A program made the translations under genes and the position numbers. From Minisyncoccales bacterium (GTDB lineage: Bacteria > Patescibacteriota > Minisyncoccia > Minisyncoccales > JBAMLS01): a stretch of 64,000 bases of DNA. The notes below the pieces were generated by a model. It was given only the letters and a program-made list of their open reading frames with translations, was not told the DNA's origin and ran no database searches. Below, piece by piece: positions 328 through 49,266 of the stretch (position 1 is the stretch's first letter; the number at the start of each line of letters is the position of its first letter). Location of the stretch: positions 3,504 through 67,503 of the forward strand of contig JBAMLS010000001.1 of assembly GCA_039793445.1 (NCBI GenBank), read 5' to 3'.

Positions 328-1677
328 TCAGAGAGATTCTGGTCGTTCAACTAAAACAACAGAGATTTCAAATGTCTTTTTATCTCTTAATACTTTTAGA
401 ATAACATTATCGCCAGGAGAATATTTTGTAATTATTTTGGAAAGAGAATTTTGGGAAGTAATTTTTTCTCCATTTAACTCTAAAATGATATCGCCCTCTT
501 TCAAACCAGCTTTTTCAGCCGGAGACCCAGGAATAACTCCTGGTTCATTGTTTTCTTCGTTTTTTACTATCAATGCTCCATAATCTATTGTTAAATGATA
601 TTTTTCTTTTACTTCTTGATTTATCAAAATATATCTTACTCCCAACCAGGGATAAATAATTTTTCCAATTGTTTTAATTTGTTCTACATCTCTTTTTGCT
701 TTATTAATAGGGATTGCAAAACCAATATTTTGAGCATCCTGCGCCATTGCTACATTTACACCTATTACTTGACCTTTTAAATTTAAAAGAGGACCCCCCG
801 AATTACCGCTATTTATTGCAGCATCTGTTTGAATCACATCTTCTAATATCTCCACCATACCAGCCCCAGAAGCTGTAATTGTTCTCCCCAAACCTGAAAT
901 AACACCCATTGAAACAGTATTTCTGAATTCCCCTAACGCATTACCAATAGCAATCACAATCTGACCTATTTGTAAATTAGAAGAATCACCCATTTGAATT
1001 GGTTTAAATGAAGTTAAATCAGTAACAGGTTTTTGAATCTTTATAATTGCTAAATCTTGAATGGGATCTAAAGCTAAAACTTTTGCATCATATTTTTTCC
1101 CATCATTAGTAATAATCGTATATTGTGCTTTTTTATCTGAAACTACATGTTTATTTGTTAATACTAAACCATCTTCTGAAATAATAAACCCGGTTCCACC
1201 CCCTACTTCTCTTTTTTCGGTGCCTTTTTGCTTATATTGAGGAATCTGAAAATCGGGAAAATTAAAATCTTCTGGTCCAAAAAAATCTTTAAAAGGATTA
1301 ATATAATATTGTTCAAAAACGGGCAAATCTTTTGTAATAATTATACTGACTACAGATGGCGAAGCTTCTTTGACCACTTTTATAATGTTTTCTTCAAGCC
1401 CTGCTGTAGATTGATAATTACTTTCTTCTTTTAAAGAAGAAGGGGTTGAAGTAATATTTTCTTTTTTTTCAATAAAAAGTTTTGGTGGTGAAAATCTGAT
1501 TCTTATAGAAAGAATTTTATTAATTTCTTCTTTAATTAAAGGATAATACTTTATCCCGCTAATAAAGCCTACTATAAAAAATATTAAAAAGCTTGCAAAA
1601 AGAATTATTTTAAAATTTTTTCTATCATTCTTTTTGTTTTCATTATTTTGTTTTTCTTGAAAATTTGTTATTTCCAT
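328..1677 (-). CDS. htrA: HtrA/DegP-family periplasmic serine protease with C-terminal PDZ domain
   Basis: Trypsin-like catalytic motifs TNKHVV, DLAIIKI and GNSGGPLLNLKGQVIGVN; C-terminal PDZ-like region (GSPAEKAGLKEGDIILELNG); N-terminal TM anchor. Confidence 0.85.
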   Translation of the reverse strand: MEITNFQEKQNNENKKNDRKNFKIILFASFLIFFIVGFISGIKYYPLIKEEINKILSIRIRFSPPKLFIEKKENITSTPSSLKEESNYQSTAGLEENIIKVVKEASPSVVSIIITKDLPVFEQYYINPFKDFFGPEDFNFPDFQIPQYKQKGTEKREVGGGTGFIISEDGLVLTNKHVVSDKKAQYTIITNDGKKYDAKVLALDPIQDLAIIKIQKPVTDLTSFKPIQMGDSSNLQIGQIVIAIGNALGEFRNTVSMGVISGLGRTITASGAGMVEILEDVIQTDAAINSGNSGGPLLNLKGQVIGVNVAMAQDAQNIGFAIPINKAKRDVEQIKTIGKIIYPWLGVRYILINQEVKEKYHLTIDYGALIVKNEENNEPGVIPGSPAEKAGLKEGDIILELNGEKITSQNSLSKIITKYSPGDNVILKVLRDKKTFEISVVLVERPESL

Positions 1678-3878: not shown

Positions 3879-4631
3879 TTATTTTCTAATTTGGCAAGCT
3901 TCAAAAAAAGGAGATAGTACTTTTTGAATTTCTATTAGATATTCTATTGGATAAGGATTAATTTTTTCAAAATCGCTAGAAAGTGTATTTTTAGGCACAA
4001 AATTTTGTAAAAAATATTTTGGCAGTTTTTGACCAGCGGCAACATTATAAATCCATTTGGCTATTTCTAAAATATCGTTTTTATCTAATAAAGTCGGAAT
4101 AATAGTTGTTCTAAATTCATAATCAATCTTGCCTTGCTTTAAAATTTCAACACTTTTTTCGATGTTTGAAATAATCCTTTGAATAAATAAATTATCATTT
4201 ATTCCAATTACCTTACCATATTTTTCTTTTGGTGCTTTTACGTCTAAAGCAACGTAATCTATAAGTTTTAGATCTATTAAATTTTGCACCATTTCAGGAT
4301 TGTATCCATTTGTATCAAGTTTTATTAAAAAGCCAAGGTTTTTAATTTTACTACAAAATTCTAAAAGTTCTTTATATAAAGTTGGTTCACCACCTGTTAT
4401 AGTTACTCCCTCTAAAAAACCCCTTCTTTCTTTTAGGAAAGAAAAAAAATCTTCTACCGAAATTTGAAAGTGATTTTTTGTTAATTCTGGTAAAACTAAA
4501 TCTTTATTATGACAAAAGGGACACCTAAAAGGACAATTAATTAAAAAAACAGTACAAGATAATTTTCCTGGATAATCAATAAGAGAAAGTTTTTGAAGTC
4601 CACCTATTTTAATATTTTCTAAATTTTCCAT
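3879..4631 (-). CDS. nrdG: Anaerobic ribonucleoside-triphosphate reductase activating protein (radical SAM)
   Basis: CPFRCPFCHN radical-SAM Cys triad near the N-terminus; immediately downstream of nrdD on the same strand. Confidence 0.8.
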   Translation of the reverse strand: MENLENIKIGGLQKLSLIDYPGKLSCTVFLINCPFRCPFCHNKDLVLPELTKNHFQISVEDFFSFLKERRGFLEGVTITGGEPTLYKELLEFCSKIKNLGFLIKLDTNGYNPEMVQNLIDLKLIDYVALDVKAPKEKYGKVIGINDNLFIQRIISNIEKSVEILKQGKIDYEFRTTIIPTLLDKNDILEIAKWIYNVAAGQKLPKYFLQNFVPKNTLSSDFEKINPYPIEYLIEIQKVLSPFFEACQIRK

Positions 4632-4646
4632 AAAATAAAACCGACT

Positions 4647-7600
4647 CTACAATTTTATTAACTCTTGCTTTTTAATTTTAAATGTTTTTCTTTCTTTATA
4701 TTCCTGTTGTTTACCAAAATTAAATTGATTAACTGGTCTTAAATATCCAACTACCCTTGTATAAACTTCGCAAGGCTGTTTAATTGTACATTTTGGACAA
4801 TAAAAATGTTCTCCTTCTAAATAACCATGTACAGGACAGATAGAAAAAGTAGGAGTTATCGTAATATAAGGTAATTTAAATGTTTCAAATACTCTTTTTA
4901 TAAGTTTTTTTACACCTTCGCCGTCTTGCATTCTTTCGCCTAAAAATATATGAAATACACTTCCACCTGTATATTTACAAGTTAAATCATCTTGTAAAGA
5001 TAAAGCTTCAAAAACATCGTCGGTATAATTTACCGGCAACTGAGTACTATTTGTATAATAAGGAACTTTTTTTGTGCCAGCAGTAATAATATCTGGATAT
5101 CTTTCTTTATCCTTTAAAGCCAATCTATATGCTGTAGATTCAGAAGGAGTTTGCTCTAAATTATAAAGATTTCCAGTTTCATTTTGATATTTTACTAATC
5201 TTTCTCTCATAAAATCCAAAATTTCAAGAGCAAAAGATTTTCCTTTTTTAGAACCAATATCTTCTCCCAAAAAGTTTAAAAGAGCTTCATTCATTCCTAC
5301 TAAACCAATTGTTGAAAAATGGTTTGCATAATATTGATCTCTCATTTTTTTAATATCAGATAAATAATATCTAGAATAAGGATAAAGTCCTTTTTCTATA
5401 TAATTTTCTAATGCTTTTCTTTTTATTTCTAAACTCTCTTTAGCTAAATCCATAATTTTACCCAATCTTTCAAAAAATTCTTTTTTTGTTTTAGACAAAT
5501 AGCCAATTCTTGGCATATTGATCGTGCAGACCCCCGTACTGCCGGTCTTCGCGCCCGCGCCGAATAATCCGCCACCGCCTCGATTGTAAAGTTCTTTAAG
5601 GTTGAGCCGAAGCCGACAGCACATGCTGCGGACATCTTCAGGCTTCATTTCTGAATTAATATAATTTGCGAAATAATTGATGCCATATTTTGCTGATGCT
5701 TCAAAAATTCCATCAAATGCAGATTCATCCCAAGGAAAATCTTTAGTGATATTTATCGTTGGAATGGGAAAAGTAAAAACTCTTCCTTTAGCATCGCCCT
5801 CTAAATAAACCTCATAAAGGGCTTTGTTAAAAATTTTCATTTCTTCTTCAAATTCTCCATAGGTTTCCTTTTGGGATTTGCCGCCAATAATCACTGGTAA
5901 TTTAGCAAAAACCGGTGATGGTTTTAAGTCTAAAGTAATGTTGGTAAAAGGCGTATTGTGAAAAACTAAGCATCCTGTTCCTCCAACGAAATTTTCTTGT
6001 GGGAGATCAACTGAAATATCATATTCAAATTCTTTCTCATAAGAAACCTCTTCTTTGTTAAGACAAACTCTGGCTTCAAAATCACCCACTCTGTATTGTT
6101 TTCTCCCATATTTGCTGTTTTCTTTAAAAACCCGGATAATATATTGATCTCTCCAATTTTGATTATTTTTGCTTACTTTTTCTGTGTAAACACTAAAACG
6201 AATATCTTGTTGAGATAAAAGCAAACTTAAACTTAGAGAGAGCTTTTTGGAAGTTGTAGAAAAATCCCAATGATTTTTGTATTCGGTCGCCTCTCCTTTT
6301 AATAATGTTTCAATAAATATTCTCTGAAGGTCCGGAAATAAATTAAAAATATACCAAGGAATAACTTTATTGAAAGATAAAATACCACCACTTAAACTAA
6401 CAATTTCTGCCAATAATCCTTTAGCGGCAATTTTGTAAACATTCTGAACTTTATTTCCCTTTTGAGAATAACCCTTGCTCTCTTCACTTTTCCCCAAACT
6501 CTTAAGAAATTTTAAGGTTTCTAAAATTTCTTCTTTATTCTTTCTTTCGGCCTGGGAGAGATAGGCCGAAACAGACATTCCTTTGTGTCCTTCTCCAACA
6601 TACCAAGCACAAAGTTTAACAAAATTCTCCAATAATTTACCCTTTAAAATTCTGGGGTACCAAATTTTACTGTTTTTTAACCTGAACTTGATATTTTGTT
6701 TCTGATCTCCAAACTTTCTCCAGATATCATATCTAATTGATTTTCTTTTTAACCAATCTTTCCAAATACTTTTATCTCTTATGCCAAAATCAATATAAAA
6801 AGGATGAATGGCTTGATATTCTTTCAAAATATTTTTCCTGATTTTGCTTAAAGTATGAGTAGGATTTATCTTAACAAAAACATTTTTTTGAAGCTGAGGA
6901 AATTCATCAATCAATTCAACTAAATCTAATCTTTCTTCTTTTTTCTCCTGTTCTATCTTCCCCAAGGCTAAGAAATGATTTTTTTCATTTAAGTGACGGT
7001 AATCAGAAGCTATTTCTATATCATTTGCCGAAATTGGTGTGGGATTAAATTGGCCATTAAATTTTTCAAAAGCAAAAAGAGAGTGAGCTGGTGAAACAAT
7101 AGCCTCTCCCCGATTAGTTCTAATTTTTAAAAATGAAGATTTTTGAGGAACTTTATGTCTAATAAATGCTTTTACTTTTGCCCAAACTGCTTTTCCTTCA
7201 GAATCAAAAGAAAGAGTATAATAATCATCAAAATTTTCTACGGCATAACTTTGAGGATACTGCTCAATAATCCGATGAGAATTTTCTTCAAACACTTTGT
7301 CAATCAATTTGCCAATTTCAACAAATTTTATTTTCCCTTTATGTTTTATTACAACCAACTCCTCCCAAGCTAAACTTTGAAAACCCACTCTCGTCGGAAT
7401 AGCCATATTAAATAAAAATTCTTGAAGGGCTTGTTTTACTTGTTGATAGTTTAAATTGTCATAGCGAACGAAAGGGGCTAAAAGAGTATCAAAATTTGAA
7501 AAAGCAATCGCTCCGGCTGCTTCGCCTTGAAGAGTATACATAAAATTCACCACTTGGCCTAAAGCTGATCTAAAATGTTTTGGTGGTTTAGATTCAACCT

Positions 7601-8195
7601 TACCGGGAACTCCTCCAAAACCTTTTACTAATAAATCATATAAATCCCAACCCATACAATAACACCCTAAAGTATCCAAATTATGAATATGAAAATCACC
7701 AGATTCATTTGCCTCTCTAATTTCTTTTGGATAAATTTTATTTAACCAATATTTTTTAACAATATAAGAAACACCGTAATGATTTAATCCTTGAAGAGAA
7801 AAAGACATATTAGCGTTTTCTTGAACTTCCCAATCTAACTTTTCTAAATATTGATCAATTCTATCTACCGCTTCTTCTGAAACTAAAATTGCCTCTCTTA
7901 TTTTTCTTCTTTGTTCTCTGTATAAAATAAAAGATTTAGCGGTTTCTACTAAACCCTCTGAAATAAGAACCTCTTCGATAATATCTTGAATTTCTTCTAC
8001 ATTAGGAATTTCCCCTTCTTTAAAACGACGATTTAACAAAGAAATAACTTTTTCTGTAATTTCTTTTGATTTTTCGCCATCTCCCTGATTTGCAGCGGTA
8101 AGAGCTTTAAAAATTGCTTGAGTAATTTTTTCTTTATCAAAATCTACAATAGTTCCATCCCTTTTAATAACTTTAGCGATTTTATTTTCAACCAT
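4647..8195 (-). CDS. nrdD: Anaerobic ribonucleoside-triphosphate reductase (class III) with N-terminal ATP-cone, interrupted by an intein
   Basis: ATP-cone N-terminus. Conserved finger loop SMCCRLRLNLKELYNRGGGGLFGAGAKTGSTGVCTINMPRIG. C-terminal Zn ribbon CPVHG...CPKC and glycyl-radical motif TRVVGYL. The ORF is 1182 aa; removing the 474-aa intein leaves about 708 aa, which is typical for NrdD. Confidence 0.9.
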   Translation of the reverse strand: MVENKIAKVIKRDGTIVDFDKEKITQAIFKALTAANQGDGEKSKEITEKVISLLNRRFKEGEIPNVEEIQDIIEEVLISEGLVETAKSFILYREQRRKIREAILVSEEAVDRIDQYLEKLDWEVQENANMSFSLQGLNHYGVSYIVKKYWLNKIYPKEIREANESGDFHIHNLDTLGCYCMGWDLYDLLVKGFGGVPGKVESKPPKHFRSALGQVVNFMYTLQGEAAGAIAFSNFDTLLAPFVRYDNLNYQQVKQALQEFLFNMAIPTRVGFQSLAWEELVVIKHKGKIKFVEIGKLIDKVFEENSHRIIEQYPQSYAVENFDDYYTLSFDSEGKAVWAKVKAFIRHKVPQKSSFLKIRTNRGEAIVSPAHSLFAFEKFNGQFNPTPISANDIEIASDYRHLNEKNHFLALGKIEQEKKEERLDLVELIDEFPQLQKNVFVKINPTHTLSKIRKNILKEYQAIHPFYIDFGIRDKSIWKDWLKRKSIRYDIWRKFGDQKQNIKFRLKNSKIWYPRILKGKLLENFVKLCAWYVGEGHKGMSVSAYLSQAERKNKEEILETLKFLKSLGKSEESKGYSQKGNKVQNVYKIAAKGLLAEIVSLSGGILSFNKVIPWYIFNLFPDLQRIFIETLLKGEATEYKNHWDFSTTSKKLSLSLSLLLSQQDIRFSVYTEKVSKNNQNWRDQYIIRVFKENSKYGRKQYRVGDFEARVCLNKEEVSYEKEFEYDISVDLPQENFVGGTGCLVFHNTPFTNITLDLKPSPVFAKLPVIIGGKSQKETYGEFEEEMKIFNKALYEVYLEGDAKGRVFTFPIPTINITKDFPWDESAFDGIFEASAKYGINYFANYINSEMKPEDVRSMCCRLRLNLKELYNRGGGGLFGAGAKTGSTGVCTINMPRIGYLSKTKKEFFERLGKIMDLAKESLEIKRKALENYIEKGLYPYSRYYLSDIKKMRDQYYANHFSTIGLVGMNEALLNFLGEDIGSKKGKSFALEILDFMRERLVKYQNETGNLYNLEQTPSESTAYRLALKDKERYPDIITAGTKKVPYYTNSTQLPVNYTDDVFEALSLQDDLTCKYTGGSVFHIFLGERMQDGEGVKKLIKRVFETFKLPYITITPTFSICPVHGYLEGEHFYCPKCTIKQPCEVYTRVVGYLRPVNQFNFGKQQEYKERKTFKIKKQELIKL
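5955..7376 (-). mobile_element. Intein (about 474 aa, large, with a putative LAGLIDADG-type homing endonuclease region) inside nrdD
   Basis: C-terminal splice block EYDISVDLPQENFVGGTGCLVFHN followed by +1 Thr (TPFTNITLD); I verified the codons cac aat acg on the reverse strand at 5952-5960. The N-terminus starts at Ser274 (SLAWEELVVIKHKG...). There is an internal LCAWYVGEGHKG segment resembling LAGLIDADG. Confidence 0.65.
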
Positions 8196-22504: not shown

Positions 22505-22588
22505 GCCGGAGTGGCGGAACTGCTAGACGCGCACGACTCAAAATCGTGTGGGAGAAATCCCATGAGGGTTGGATTCCCTCCTCCGGCA
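22505..22588 (+). tRNA. tRNA-Leu (anticodon CAA), class II with long variable arm
   Basis: Acceptor gccggag/ctccggc; anticodon stem cacga/tcgtg with loop ctCAAaa; long variable arm tgggagaaatccca; T arm gaggg-ttggatt-ccctc; discriminator A; CCA not encoded. Confidence 0.85.
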
Positions 22589-22629
22589 CTTTTTAGATAA
22601 AAAGGTTTAAAAAAATTTTTTAAAAAAAT

Positions 22630-44505: not shown

Positions 44506-44852
44506 GGGGGTGAAAATGGAATTGATGAAAGTCATAAAAAGCCAAAGCAGGCAGGTTGAGGGAGACCTCATAAAACATCTAAAAAGTGCAAACTTTACTT
44601 TTAAACCTGCTTTAGTTGCTGCATAAAACTAAAGCCATTCTTCTTCTTTTGTTCTCGACAAAGAAGAAAGGGTGTTATATTTTTCGAGATAGATAGTTAT
44701 TTTTCCTGGAATAACTATCGAAAAATAACAGGAAAAAAGTCTTATCGTTTTTGTCTACTTTTTAAAGATAAGACTTTAAAAGAAAGTAGACTATACCTGT
44801 AAAACTGCGAGGCTTTGACTCTCAGACGCGGGTTCAAATCCCACCACCTCCA
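44506..44852 (+). ncRNA. ssrA: Transfer-messenger RNA (tmRNA, ssrA)
   Basis: 5' GGGGGUG pairs with 3' CACCUCC, including a G3:U70 wobble (the tRNA-Ala identity element). T arm is gcggg-TTCAAAT-cccac; discriminator is A. Internal tag frame is gca aac ttt act ttt aaa cct gct tta gtt gct gca taa (ANFTFKPALVAA*, 44588-44626). Relatively GC-rich versus the surroundings; sits directly downstream of smpB. Confidence 0.75.
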
Positions 44853-44894
44853 CAATTAATATTAATATAAATTAATAAAAATATTTTTAAAAAA

Positions 44895-48633: not shown

Positions 48634-49266
48634 TTACATTTTTAAAATATTTTTTTCAAATGTTTTTGTTCCATCTTCTAAAGCGTTTTTAATCTCTTTT
48701 TTTATCACCAAAAGTAATAAAGCTCCAATGGTCCCAAAAATTCCAGATAATAAGAATGTAAAGTTAAAACCAAATTTATCAACCAAAAAACCACCAAGAA
48801 ACGCAGCCAATCCAGAACCAACACTAACGGCAGTAGCGTCCATTCCCCATTGAGTTGCTTCTTTTCCTTTATCAATATGCCGAGTAAAAATTGCTGTCCA
48901 ACCAGATAAAGATAGCGCCATTCCAAAACCATGAAACAATTGAATAAAATAAATGTGAATTGGCAATTTTGATAGAATGAAAAAGAAGGGTAAAACCCCA
49001 GCTATAAATAAACCTAAAACCAAAGCAAAATAATCATCATCTTCTGATGGCAAACGATCTAAAAAAAATCCTATAGGAATTCTTAAAACTGCCAGTGAAA
49101 TAGTATAAATTGCAACGGCTATACCAACAACAAAAATACTGCCGCCCTTGATTGAATTTATGATAAAAATTGGAAAAATTGGAGTAATTAACCCCCAACC
49201 CAACCAAAAAACTAAATCGCTCAAAATTAAATATTTTATAATCTTATTTAATTTAAAATTCCTCAT
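48634..49266 (-). CDS. 6-TM membrane protein resembling half of an MFS transporter
   Basis: Hydrophobicity plus MFS motif-A-like GFFLDRLPSEDD between TM2 and TM3. Confidence 0.3.
   Translation of the reverse strand: MRNFKLNKIIKYLILSDLVFWLGWGLITPIFPIFIINSIKGGSIFVVGIAVAIYTISLAVLRIPIGFFLDRLPSEDDDYFALVLGLFIAGVLPFFFILSKLPIHIYFIQLFHGFGMALSLSGWTAIFTRHIDKGKEATQWGMDATAVSVGSGLAAFLGGFLVDKFGFNFTFLLSGIFGTIGALLLLVIKKEIKNALEDGTKTFEKNILKM

What the first reader, a model, noticed from the sequence alone, without database searches (positions are those of the whole stretch)
5521..5640. 120-nt GC-rich patch with foreign codon usage covering the NrdD active-site finger loop
Inside nrdD, codons for EDVRSMCCRLRLNLKELYNRGGGGLFGAGAKTGSTGVCTI read (on the coding strand) gtc cgc agc atg tgc tgt cgg ctt cgg ctc ... 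cga ggc ggt ggc gga tta ttc ggc gcg ggc gcg aag acc ggc agt acg ggg gtc tgc acg. That is almost exclusively G/C-ending codons, including CGG/CGC Arg, GGC Gly and GCG Ala.

The rest of this gene, and of the whole window, uses A/T-ending codons (aga, gga, gca, aaa). The switch is abrupt on both sides and is confined to the most conserved segment of class III RNRs: the thiyl-radical Cys loop and the Gly-rich stretch. The high GC is also what produces the spurious antisense ORF at 5444-5635.

I see three explanations. One is a short gene-conversion or horizontal patch from a high-GC nrdD. Another is a consensus artefact, where reads from high-GC community members cross-map onto this ultra-conserved stretch during metagenome assembly or polishing. 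The third is unusual nucleotide-level selection, for example an embedded RNA structure.
Basis: seen in the sequence. Interest (0 to 1): 0.6.

Follow-up and report, generated by a model that had tools for sequence, protein, structure and literature searches.

The report
Foreign GC-rich patch across intein sites
A 114-base stretch of an essential DNA-precursor enzyme gene (nrdD) in a very AT-rich bacterium is written in GC-rich codons without changing the protein; it is most likely a short piece copied from another organism's gene, and it lies exactly over two spots where selfish protein-splicing elements (inteins) insert in related genomes.

Summary
Codons 855-892 of nrdD (window 5520-5633, minus strand) carry 26 G/C-ending codons where 7.1 are expected (P about 3e-12, z 8.5). 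This is the strongest compositional anomaly in the 64 kb window.

An independently deposited assembly of a 99.8% identical strain has the identical tract. Chimera mechanics also argue against an assembly or polishing artefact. No read data were available.

The tract is lineage-specific. 83 relatives show no comparable excess. Identity to the closest relative falls from 0.78-0.85 nt in the flanks to 0.62 in the tract, while protein identity stays at 0.87.

RNA folding is not significant and Rfam finds nothing.

New context: nrdD in this clade is full of inteins. The window's gene has one (5955-7376). In homologues, LAGLIDADG inteins insert at M858|C859 and G885|S886. The tract runs from 12 nt upstream of the first site to 21 nt downstream of the second.

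Best reading: a short gene-conversion tract from an unsampled GC-richer allele, probably laid down by break repair at these homing sites.

No donor was found, and the intein-bearing alleles examined do not share the tract. The endonuclease link is therefore inferred. Part of the foreign look (CGN Arg, CTT Leu) is typical of the family.

The parts
5520..5633 (-). GC-rich synonymous tract, nrdD codons 855-892 (VRSMCCRLRLNLKELYNRGGGGLFGAGAKTGSTGVCTI). It has 26 of 38 G/C-ending codons and is the inferred imported gene-conversion tract.
   Evidence: Searches give composition and likelihood; identical in second assembly L081; nt identity to L001 is 0.62 here against 0.85 in the adjacent 54 codons.
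5621..5622 (-). Site A. An empty intein homing site between codon 858 (ATG) and codon 859 (TGC). Homologues P0002, P0003, P0018, P0021, P0051, P0086, P0092 and P0116 have inteins here.
   Evidence: sequences. (P0002 insert = Intein_splicing; P0116 insert = Intein_splicing + LAGLIDADG_3 + Hom_end). (second most occupied site among 120 homologues).
5540..5541 (-). Site B. An empty intein homing site between codon 885 (GGC) and codon 886 (AGT). Homologues P0004 and P0010 have a 393-aa LAGLIDADG intein here (..LTG|CYDEK...CGN|SIGVV).
   Evidence: PF14528 E = 4.5e-12, PF14890.
4647..8195 (-). nrdD, the class III (anaerobic) ribonucleotide reductase. It is 1182 aa including one intein, with an ATP-cone and the NRDD domain split in two.
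5955..7376 (-). Resident 474-aa intein (S274...HN747, +1 residue T748) at GFQ|. Intein-less relatives read GFQ-C-PFT. Its codon usage is intermediate between native and foreign.
   Evidence: alignment with intein-less L001 and intein-bearing L057. (codon usage). (only a weak Hint match). (the +1 position is Ser in T. maritima NrdD, so it is not the catalytic Cys).
5796..5954 (-). C-extein flank of the resident intein (codons 748-800) with mildly elevated G/C-ending codons. Possibly an older co-conversion tract.
   Evidence: z 2.0-2.8. (+3.7 and +4.0 bits per 25 codons, against -5 to -9 in native parts).
7377..7520 (-). N-extein flank of the resident intein (codons 226-273), partly elevated in G/C-ending codons.
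   Evidence: z 1.1-2.4. (+4.8 then -4.3 bits).
5444..5635 (-). 63-aa ORF in another frame of the same strand as nrdD. It is a by-product of stop-codon depletion in the GC-rich tract, and no evidence was found that it is a gene.
3879..4631 (-). nrdG, the radical-SAM activase, immediately downstream of nrdD. Given for context.
   Evidence: Pfam Fer4_12 and Radical_SAM on the identical gene in L081.

Best explanation
The tract is real DNA of this organism. It is a 114-nt gene-conversion tract in which the native AT-rich coding of the NrdD finger-loop/Gly-rich segment was overwritten from a homologous nrdD allele of a GC-richer, so far unsampled relative.

The protein is unchanged because this segment is nearly invariant in the family.

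The most likely mechanism is double-strand-break repair at an intein homing site. In this clade LAGLIDADG-type inteins insert at M858|C859 and at G885|S886, and the tract runs from 12 nt upstream of the first site to 21 nt downstream of the second.

Two routes would leave exactly such a short, site-centred, synonymous tract in a gene that is now intein-free at both sites:
- cleavage of an empty site followed by templated repair from foreign DNA;
- replacement of an intein-bearing segment by a foreign intein-less one.

Shown: the tract's existence, its statistics, its reproducibility, its lineage-specificity, its foreign codon usage, and the positions of the two homing sites.

Inferred: that it was imported, since no donor was found, and that a homing endonuclease triggered the event.
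For: Statistics:
- 26 of 38 G/C-ending codons against 7.1 expected, P 2.7e-12, the top anomaly of 64 kb.
- LLR of +32 to +41 bits for foreign usage, while codons 1-225 and 901-1182 are clearly native.

Reproducibility: the tract is identical in L081, from GCA_049971655.1. That strain differs from the window by 14 SNPs over 7.5 kb.

Lineage-specificity:
- Family-wide mean GC3 excess in the tract is about 0.
- The highest z among 83 relatives is 3.5.
- Against L001, nt identity is 0.62 in the tract and 0.78-0.85 in all other extein segments, with aa identity 0.87.

Internal control: other catalytic or invariant motifs of the same gene use native codons, namely the glycyl-radical RVVGYLRP motif, the Zn-ribbon and the C180 region. 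Selection for accuracy at conserved residues therefore does not explain the tract.

Homing sites:
- Sites A and B are defined by intein-bearing homologues, and the inserts are bona fide inteins with LAGLIDADG domains.
- Site A is the second most occupied of at least 9 insertion sites in 120 homologues.
- The same gene already shows a resident intein with compositionally intermediate flanks and a changed +1 residue, C to T.

Precedent:
- Short, mostly synonymous co-conversion tracts next to homing sites, retained after loss of the element, are documented for the plant cox1 intron (PMC3192709).
- Neighbouring intein sites and co-conversion of flanking residues are described for haloarchaeal MCM (PMC10643990).
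Against: No donor was found.
- The best nt identity to the tract among 80 GTDB relatives is 75%.
- Further homologues, including intein-bearing ones, reach 59-72%.
- There were zero hits in two metagenome scans, three viral scans, and blastn against phages and plasmids.

Intein-bearing alleles at sites A and B (L082, L084, L085, L087, L088) do not carry this tract, and their inteins are about 30% GC.

The tract's GC3 of 0.68 implies a donor GC3 of about 0.6-0.7. P is 0.007-0.03 even under the codon usage of the GC-richest sampled relatives at 40-47% GC. Yet its amino-acid sequence is typical of the AT-rich subclade.

Overlap with two homing sites is only modestly improbable by chance, by my rough estimate about 6% for a random 38-codon window. 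It is also confounded, because inteins and conserved segments coincide anyway.

No intein remnant exists at sites A or B in the window.
Confidence: 0.42

Rival explanations
1. The tract was imported by ordinary homeologous recombination, for example after natural transformation, with no homing endonuclease involved. Its overlap with the intein sites is a coincidence that arises because both concentrate on the most conserved segment of the protein.
For: The evidence for import is the same as above. Intein-bearing alleles do not share the tract. There is no intein or remnant at sites A or B in the window. The chance overlap with two sites is not negligible. A ComEC-type competence gene lies nearby in the identical locus L081.
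Against: In plain recombination between diverged alleles the crossovers should fall inside the best-conserved nucleotides and the converted tract should lie between them. Here the converted tract is the conserved segment, and the junctions lie in less conserved, AT-rich flanks that a GC-rich donor would hardly share. A break-centred repair tract fits better. This argument is an inference.
Confidence: 0.25
2. The segment was recoded in place, or a recoded allele was selected, because of a nucleotide-level advantage. The most interesting version is an allele immune to the homing endonucleases that target sites A and B. Other versions are local GC-biased repair or a translational effect.
For: The tract covers both homing sites with short margins of 12 and 21 nt. 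No donor was found. The amino-acid sequence is that of the organism's own subclade while the codon usage fits no sampled member. Alleles resistant to intein invasion are discussed for haloarchaeal MCM (PMC10643990).
Against: - The 24-nt windows around sites A and B are already very variable among relatives, with a mean of 5.8 and 7.1 mismatches to consensus. The window has 8 and 10, and 17-18 of 80 relatives are as divergent or more.
- Recoding merely to differ would also use A/T-ending alternatives, yet six of nine Gly codons are GGC.
- About 20 clustered synonymous changes with none outside the tract are hard to obtain by point mutation.
- Other invariant motifs are not recoded.
- G-ending CGG, GCG, ACG and GGG are rare in this genome's codon table (2-10% of their families), so they are unlikely to be optimal codons.
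Confidence: 0.12
3. The tract is an assembly, bin re-assembly or polishing artefact, in which bases from another community member were written into the consensus over a conserved stretch.
For: The source is a metagenome-assembled genome. The second assembly carrying the tract (L081, accession prefix JBMFKX) and the only relative with a weaker excess at the same place (L013, prefix JBMFLE) have neighbouring accession prefixes, so they may share samples and pipeline. No donor was found, and no reads were available to check.
Against: - The tract is identical in two assemblies that differ by 14 SNPs over 7.5 kb and have different contig lengths.
- The tract is in frame and keeps the subclade-typical protein sequence.
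- A double switch within 114 nt needs k-mers shared with a GC-rich genome in AT-rich flanks, which is implausible.
- Cross-mapping needs long exact seeds that alleles about 70% identical do not offer. This last point is an inference.
- Other MAGs with Kamchatka-type isolate names (L011, L021) show nothing.
Confidence: 0.08
4. The GC-rich stretch encodes a structured RNA or a regulatory element embedded in the coding sequence.
For: The predicted sense-strand fold pairs the 5' and 3' parts of the tract into a long imperfect hairpin.
Against: Fold z-scores are -1.4 for the sense strand and -1.9 for the antisense strand, within the range of shuffles. Rfam gives no match even at E = 1. Relatives do not conserve the nucleotides or the GC-richness.
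Confidence: 0.03

Closest known systems
Exonic/exteinic co-conversion tracts of homing elements, for example the cox1 group I intron tract in angiosperms, including a case retained after loss of the intron (PMC3192709)
   Same: A short tract at a homing site. It is made almost only of synonymous third-position differences, has abrupt ends, and sits in a highly conserved coding segment. The tract can persist in an allele that lacks the element.
   Different: Here no element is present at either site. The tract is not shared with the intein-bearing alleles examined. It spans two sites 81 nt apart, and its defining signal is a codon-usage (GC) shift rather than diagnostic characters shared with a donor clade.
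Neighbouring inteins, co-conversion of flanking extein residues and invasion-resistant alleles in haloarchaeal MCM (PMC10643990)
   Same: There are several intein sites close together in one essential gene. Flanking residues change with invasion: here C becomes T at the +1 position of the resident intein. Empty-site alleles differ in how easily they can be invaded.
   Different: In MCM the resistance is explained by an amino-acid change (a proline that blocks splicing), not by synonymous recoding. No cleavage or invasion data exist for nrdD of this clade.
Mosaic genes formed by short-patch interspecies recombination. From general knowledge, for example penicillin-binding protein genes of naturally transformable bacteria.
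   Same: A block of foreign nucleotide composition with sharp boundaries inside an otherwise native gene, in a lineage with competence genes.
   Different: The block is far shorter (114 nt), changes no function-relevant residue, and has no identified donor. There is no obvious selective agent.

Membership tests
Co-conversion tract (footprint) of a homing intein | The tract abuts or spans a site where the mobile element inserts | tested here: met
   Sites A (858|859) and B (885|886) are occupied by inteins in homologues. The tract runs from 12 nt 5' of A to 21 nt 3' of B.
Co-conversion tract (footprint) of a homing intein | Differences are clustered and essentially synonymous | tested here: met
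   Amino-acid identity to L001 is 0.87 in the tract, as in the rest of the gene. Nucleotide identity drops to 0.62.
Co-conversion tract (footprint) of a homing intein | The tract sequence is shared with the extein flanks of element-bearing donor alleles | tested here: not met
   L082, L084, L085, L087 and L088 (inteins at A or B) have different and less GC-rich flanks. The five for which identity was computed reach at most 0.66-0.68. Only a handful of alleles could be fetched.
Co-conversion tract (footprint) of a homing intein | The element is present, or there is independent evidence that it was formerly present, at the site | tested here: not met
   There is no intein or remnant at A or B in the window or in L081. 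None of the 80 GTDB relatives has one at these sites.
Horizontally acquired gene-conversion patch (mosaic gene) | Composition or codon usage deviates from the host genome, with sharp boundaries | tested here: met
Horizontally acquired gene-conversion patch (mosaic gene) | Absent from close relatives at the same position | tested here: met
Horizontally acquired gene-conversion patch (mosaic gene) | A donor lineage is more similar in the patch than in the flanks | tested here: not met
   No sequence exceeds 75% identity. All collection scans were empty. The 437 more distant GTDB relatives and the full nt/WGS databases were not searchable.
Assembly or polishing chimera | Not reproduced in independent assemblies | tested here: not met
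   The tract is identical in L081, which differs by 14 SNPs over 7.5 kb. Independence of samples and pipeline is not known.
Assembly or polishing chimera | Reads are heterogeneous, or no reads bridge the junctions | not testable with these tools
   No read data are available.
Structured RNA embedded in a coding sequence | Fold stability beyond shuffled controls, conservation or covariation, or a known family match | tested here: not met
   Fold z-scores are -1.4 and -1.9. Rfam finds nothing. The nucleotides are not conserved.
Class III RNR (NrdD) finger-loop segment | The CC motif aligns to the finger-loop cysteines of a solved NrdD | tested here: met
   MCCRL aligns to SCCRL, residues C329/C330 of T. 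maritima NrdD (4COI, 4U3E). The role of C330 as the radical cysteine is recalled from the literature and was not tested.

The most novel reading that the evidence does not exclude
The tract is an 'immunised' allele. Two adjacent intein homing sites were recoded wholesale at synonymous positions, whether acquired or evolved. The allele was fixed because it protects an essential, heavily parasitised gene from cleavage and invasion by the LAGLIDADG inteins circulating in this clade. This would be natural selection acting on synonymous sites purely to evade homing endonucleases.
Probability: 0.1. Interest if true: 0.65.

Novelty: new member of a known kind. Interest (0 to 1): 0.4.

Why it matters
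If the reading is right, this is a clean natural example of how selfish homing elements, or short-patch recombination, leave compositional scars in the most conserved part of an essential enzyme gene of an ultra-small, AT-rich Patescibacterium.

It also shows that a codon-usage scan can reveal past mobile-element traffic at sites that are now empty.

It draws attention to nrdD of this clade as an unusually dense intein target: at least 9 sites and up to four inteins per gene. That makes it a good system for studying interference between neighbouring inteins and the evolution of resistant target sites.

For genome curation, it shows that such a patch need not be an assembly error.

Tried and rejected
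Donor searches, all empty:
- The tract aligned against 80 GTDB relatives gave a best identity of 75%.
- Three viral scans found nothing relevant.
- blastn of 5500-5660 against phages and plasmids gave no match.
- DNA of nine further homologues, chosen for a similar tract peptide or for inteins at the sites, reached 59-72% identity for the seven compared directly.

A protein search with the 97-aa segment returned only short fragments and was useless for this purpose.

Ideas tested and rejected:
- Family-wide selection for GC-rich codons in this segment. Mean excess is about 0, and the peak 20-codon windows of relatives are not enriched here.
- Accuracy selection at conserved residues. Other invariant motifs of the gene use native codons.
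- An embedded RNA.
- Intragenomic conversion from a paralogue. There is no second copy in the 64 kb window.
- 'Resistant because unusually divergent at the homing sites'. The window is not an outlier.
- A single long co-conversion tract from the donor of the resident intein. The intein and its flanks are only intermediate in codon usage, codons 801-850 are native-like, and the tract needs a much GC-richer source.
- The other GC peaks of the window (788-908 and 48800-48921). They reach only 0.45 and lie inside ordinary ORFs.
Full report
What is there.

The window is very AT-rich (25.7% GC). The gene at 4647-8195 on the minus strand is nrdD, the class III ribonucleotide reductase. It has an ATP-cone and an NRDD domain interrupted by an insertion, and nrdG follows it.

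The 120-nt GC maximum of the entire window, 0.60, starts at 5523. That is six standard deviations above the mean, and the next peaks reach only 0.45-0.46.

I built amino-acid-specific codon usage from the other long ORFs of the window. Against it, codons 855-892 (5520-5633) carry 26 G/C-ending codons where 7.1 are expected. This gives P 2.7e-12 and z 8.5, while the next best 38-codon window in any ORF has z 3.9.

The change is abrupt at 854/855 and at 892/893. MCCRL aligns with SCCRL, residues C329/C330 of Thermotoga maritima NrdD, so the tract does cover the finger loop.

ORF 5444-5635 lies on the same strand as nrdD in another frame. It is not antisense to it.

Is it an artefact?

The exact protein is not on record. 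A 99.6% identical protein (P0001) is encoded on a 21-kb contig of another deposited MAG, GCA_049971655.1.

That locus (L081) is 99.8% identical to the window over 7.5 kb, with 14 substitutions. Seven of these fall in nrdD. None falls in the tract, which is identical. The nearest is codon 851, AAG in the window and AAA in L081.

Two assemblies of slightly different strains therefore agree. A double assembly switch within 114 nt would need k-mers shared with a GC-rich genome in AT-rich flanks. Cross-mapping would need long exact seeds that alleles about 70% identical do not provide. I rate an artefact at about 8%, but reads could not be inspected.

Is it ancestral or family-wide?

Eighty GTDB relatives were fetched, all Patescibacteria: Nealsonbacteria, Minisyncoccia and Paceibacteria, 69-86% identical in the C-extein.
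- Their GC3 in the homologous tract ranges from 0.13 to 0.66, roughly following their own genomic GC.
- After correcting for each locus's own amino-acid-specific usage, the mean excess over the tract is about zero.
- The largest z among 83 loci is 3.5, in L013. The closest relative, L001, has z -0.1.
- The best nucleotide identity to the window's tract is 75%.

Against L001, nucleotide identity is 0.78-0.85 in every other extein segment and 0.62 in the tract. Amino-acid identity in the tract is 0.87.

The tract is therefore a lineage-specific replacement of synonymous positions, not a retained ancestral state or a conserved nucleotide element.

One qualification applies. The strictly conserved arginines R861, R863 and R872 use CGN in 57-70% of relatives. 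L862 and L869 use CTN in 60-85%. By contrast, variable Arg/Lys positions use AGR. That part of the foreign look is family-typical.

Rival nucleotide-level functions.

The sense and antisense RNAs fold no better than shuffles, with z -1.4 and -1.9. Rfam gives nothing, even at E = 1.

Other invariant motifs of the same gene are written in native codons: the glycyl-radical motif, the Zn-ribbon cysteines and the C180 region. This argues against translational-accuracy selection at critical residues.

The window holds no second copy that could serve as an internal donor.

Alignment with intein-less relatives shows a 474-aa intein in the window's gene, running from S274 to HN747. The +1 residue is T748 where intein-less relatives have Cys (GFQ-C-PFT). 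L057 carries a 62% identical intein at the same site, also with Thr at +1. That position is Ser in T. maritima NrdD, so it is not a catalytic cysteine.

Codon usage divides the gene into three classes:
- codons 1-225 and 901-1182 are clearly native;
- codons 226-850 are on average intermediate. They comprise the intein and its flanks, although codons 801-850 are native-like;
- codons 851-900 are strongly foreign.

Homologues from the protein collection show that nrdD of this clade is an intein hot-bed. There are at least nine insertion sites and up to four inteins per gene. Two of these sites lie inside the tract.
- Site A, RSM|C...N|CCRL, is between codons 858 and 859. It is occupied in P0002, P0003, P0018, P0021, P0051, P0086, P0092 and P0116 by at least three different intein types.
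- Site B, ..LTG|C...GN|S(I/T)GV, is between codons 885 and 886. It is occupied in P0004 and P0010.

The inserts score as Intein_splicing, and the large ones also as LAGLIDADG homing endonucleases.

The tract runs from 12 nt upstream of site A to 21 nt downstream of site B.

Where did the tract come from?

No donor was found.
- The viral scans and blastn against phages and plasmids were also empty.
- DNA of nine further homologues, chosen for tract peptide similarity or for inteins at sites A and B, reached 59-72% identity for the seven compared directly.
- The intein-bearing alleles do not carry GC-rich flanks of this kind, and their inteins are about 30% GC.

The tract's 26 of 38 G/C-ending codons would be unusual even for the GC-richest sampled relatives. 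P is 0.007 under the usage of 40-43% GC relatives and 0.03 under that of 43-47% GC relatives. The source must therefore have had GC3 around 0.6-0.7. Yet the tract's amino-acid sequence (NLKELYNRGGGG...AGAKTGSTG) is typical of the organism's own AT-rich subclade.

This tension is the main unexplained point.

Interpretation.

About 20 clustered synonymous changes with none outside the tract, including six GGC glycines and G-ending CGG, GCG and ACG codons, are not what point mutation gives. Nor are they what selection merely to differ would give. Templated replacement from a GC-richer homologue is the simplest account.

A tract centred on break sites, with junctions in poorly conserved flanks, fits double-strand-break repair better than ordinary crossovers. 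Ordinary crossovers should fall inside the conserved nucleotides.

The two homing sites supply candidate break sites. The same gene shows traces of intein traffic, namely the resident intein, its intermediate flanks and the C-to-T change at +1.

Short synonymous co-conversion tracts at homing sites, occasionally retained after loss of the element, are established for the plant cox1 intron (PMC3192709). Interference and co-conversion among neighbouring inteins are described in haloarchaeal MCM (PMC10643990).

The endonuclease link nevertheless remains an inference. By my rough count, the overlap of a random 38-codon window with two of the nine sites has a probability of about 6%. Inteins prefer conserved segments anyway.

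The idea of an allele made resistant by divergence gets no specific support. The 24-nt windows around both sites are already very variable among relatives, and 17-18 of 80 relatives are as far from the consensus as the window.

Verdict.

The best explanation is a short imported gene-conversion tract across two intein homing sites, with the donor unsampled.
- Import of any kind: about 65-70%.
- Homing-endonuclease involvement: about 40%.
- In-place selection or an immunised allele: about 12%.
- Artefact: about 8%.
- Embedded RNA: about 3%.

It is a new member of a known kind, and of moderate interest.

Noticed in passing
window 5955-7376 (-), with flanks 5796-5954 and 7377-7520: nrdD carries a 474-aa intein (S274...HN747). 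Pfam barely recognises it, giving only a weak Hint match. The +1 residue is Thr where intein-less relatives have Cys. The intein and about 50 codons on each side have codon usage intermediate between native and foreign, as if they were an older, partly ameliorated import with co-converted flanks.
   Followed up: partly
homologues P0002-P0116; window-protein positions about 180, 225, 233, 273/748, 808, 858/859, 885/886, 1049, 1078: nrdD of this Patescibacteria clade has inteins at nine or more distinct sites, with up to four in one gene (for example P0014, 2052 aa). Two unrelated inteins use the 273/748 site. This is an unusually dense intein target.
   Followed up: partly
L076 4313-4591 (Minisyncoccus archaeiphilus PMX.108); also L043, L061-L063, L068, L071, L073-L075: A 92-aa ORF lies between nrdD and nrdG. 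It combines two CxxC pairs with EVYSRVVGYIRPVSQWNEGKQQEF, a copy of the NrdD C-terminal glycyl-radical motif. It looks like a stand-alone 'spare part' glycyl-radical domain for a class III RNR, analogous to GrcA/YfiD for pyruvate formate-lyase. It is not present in the window.
   Followed up: partly
L092 (GCA_019923625.1, Nealsonbacteria), nrdD around GINYF-VYY-RGGGG: Among the loci whose DNA was fetched, this one ties with L082 for the closest match to the window's resident intein. In its nrdD about 25 codons are missing, including the CC finger loop and site A. It may be a pseudogene, an imprecise deletion at a homing site, or an assembly error.
   Followed up: no
P0016 and P0017: The intein here reads RSM[CPLGG...THN]CRLRL. 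Canonical splicing would leave RSMCRLRL, one cysteine fewer than the RSMCCRLRL of all relatives. Either the junction is non-canonical or the product lacks one finger-loop Cys.
   Followed up: no
L013 codons 847-892 (accession prefix JBMFLE, adjacent to the JBMFKX prefix of L081): This is the only relative with a notable G/C-ending excess at the same place (z 3.5-4.0). Its sequence is only 63% identical to the window's tract. It may come from the same project, but shared sampling was not verified.
   Followed up: partly
nrdD alignment of 83 loci: Strictly conserved Arg positions (244, 861, 863, 872, 1024) use CGN in 57-77% of these AT-rich genomes. Arg positions that alternate with Lys use AGR in about 80-94%. 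Codon family appears to track the evolutionary history of each site rather than genomic bias.
   Followed up: partly
window against L081, nrdD codons 287-851: Seven of the 14 substitutions between the two strains over 7.5 kb lie in the intein-plus-flank part of nrdD. None lies in codons 1-286 or 852-1182. One of them, codon 851 AAG/AAA, is four codons upstream of the tract.
   Followed up: no
window 44506-44855 (+) and 22505-22589 (+): A tmRNA gene (135 bits) and tRNA-Leu(CAA) are present. The tRNA is one of the few other GC peaks of the window.
   Followed up: no
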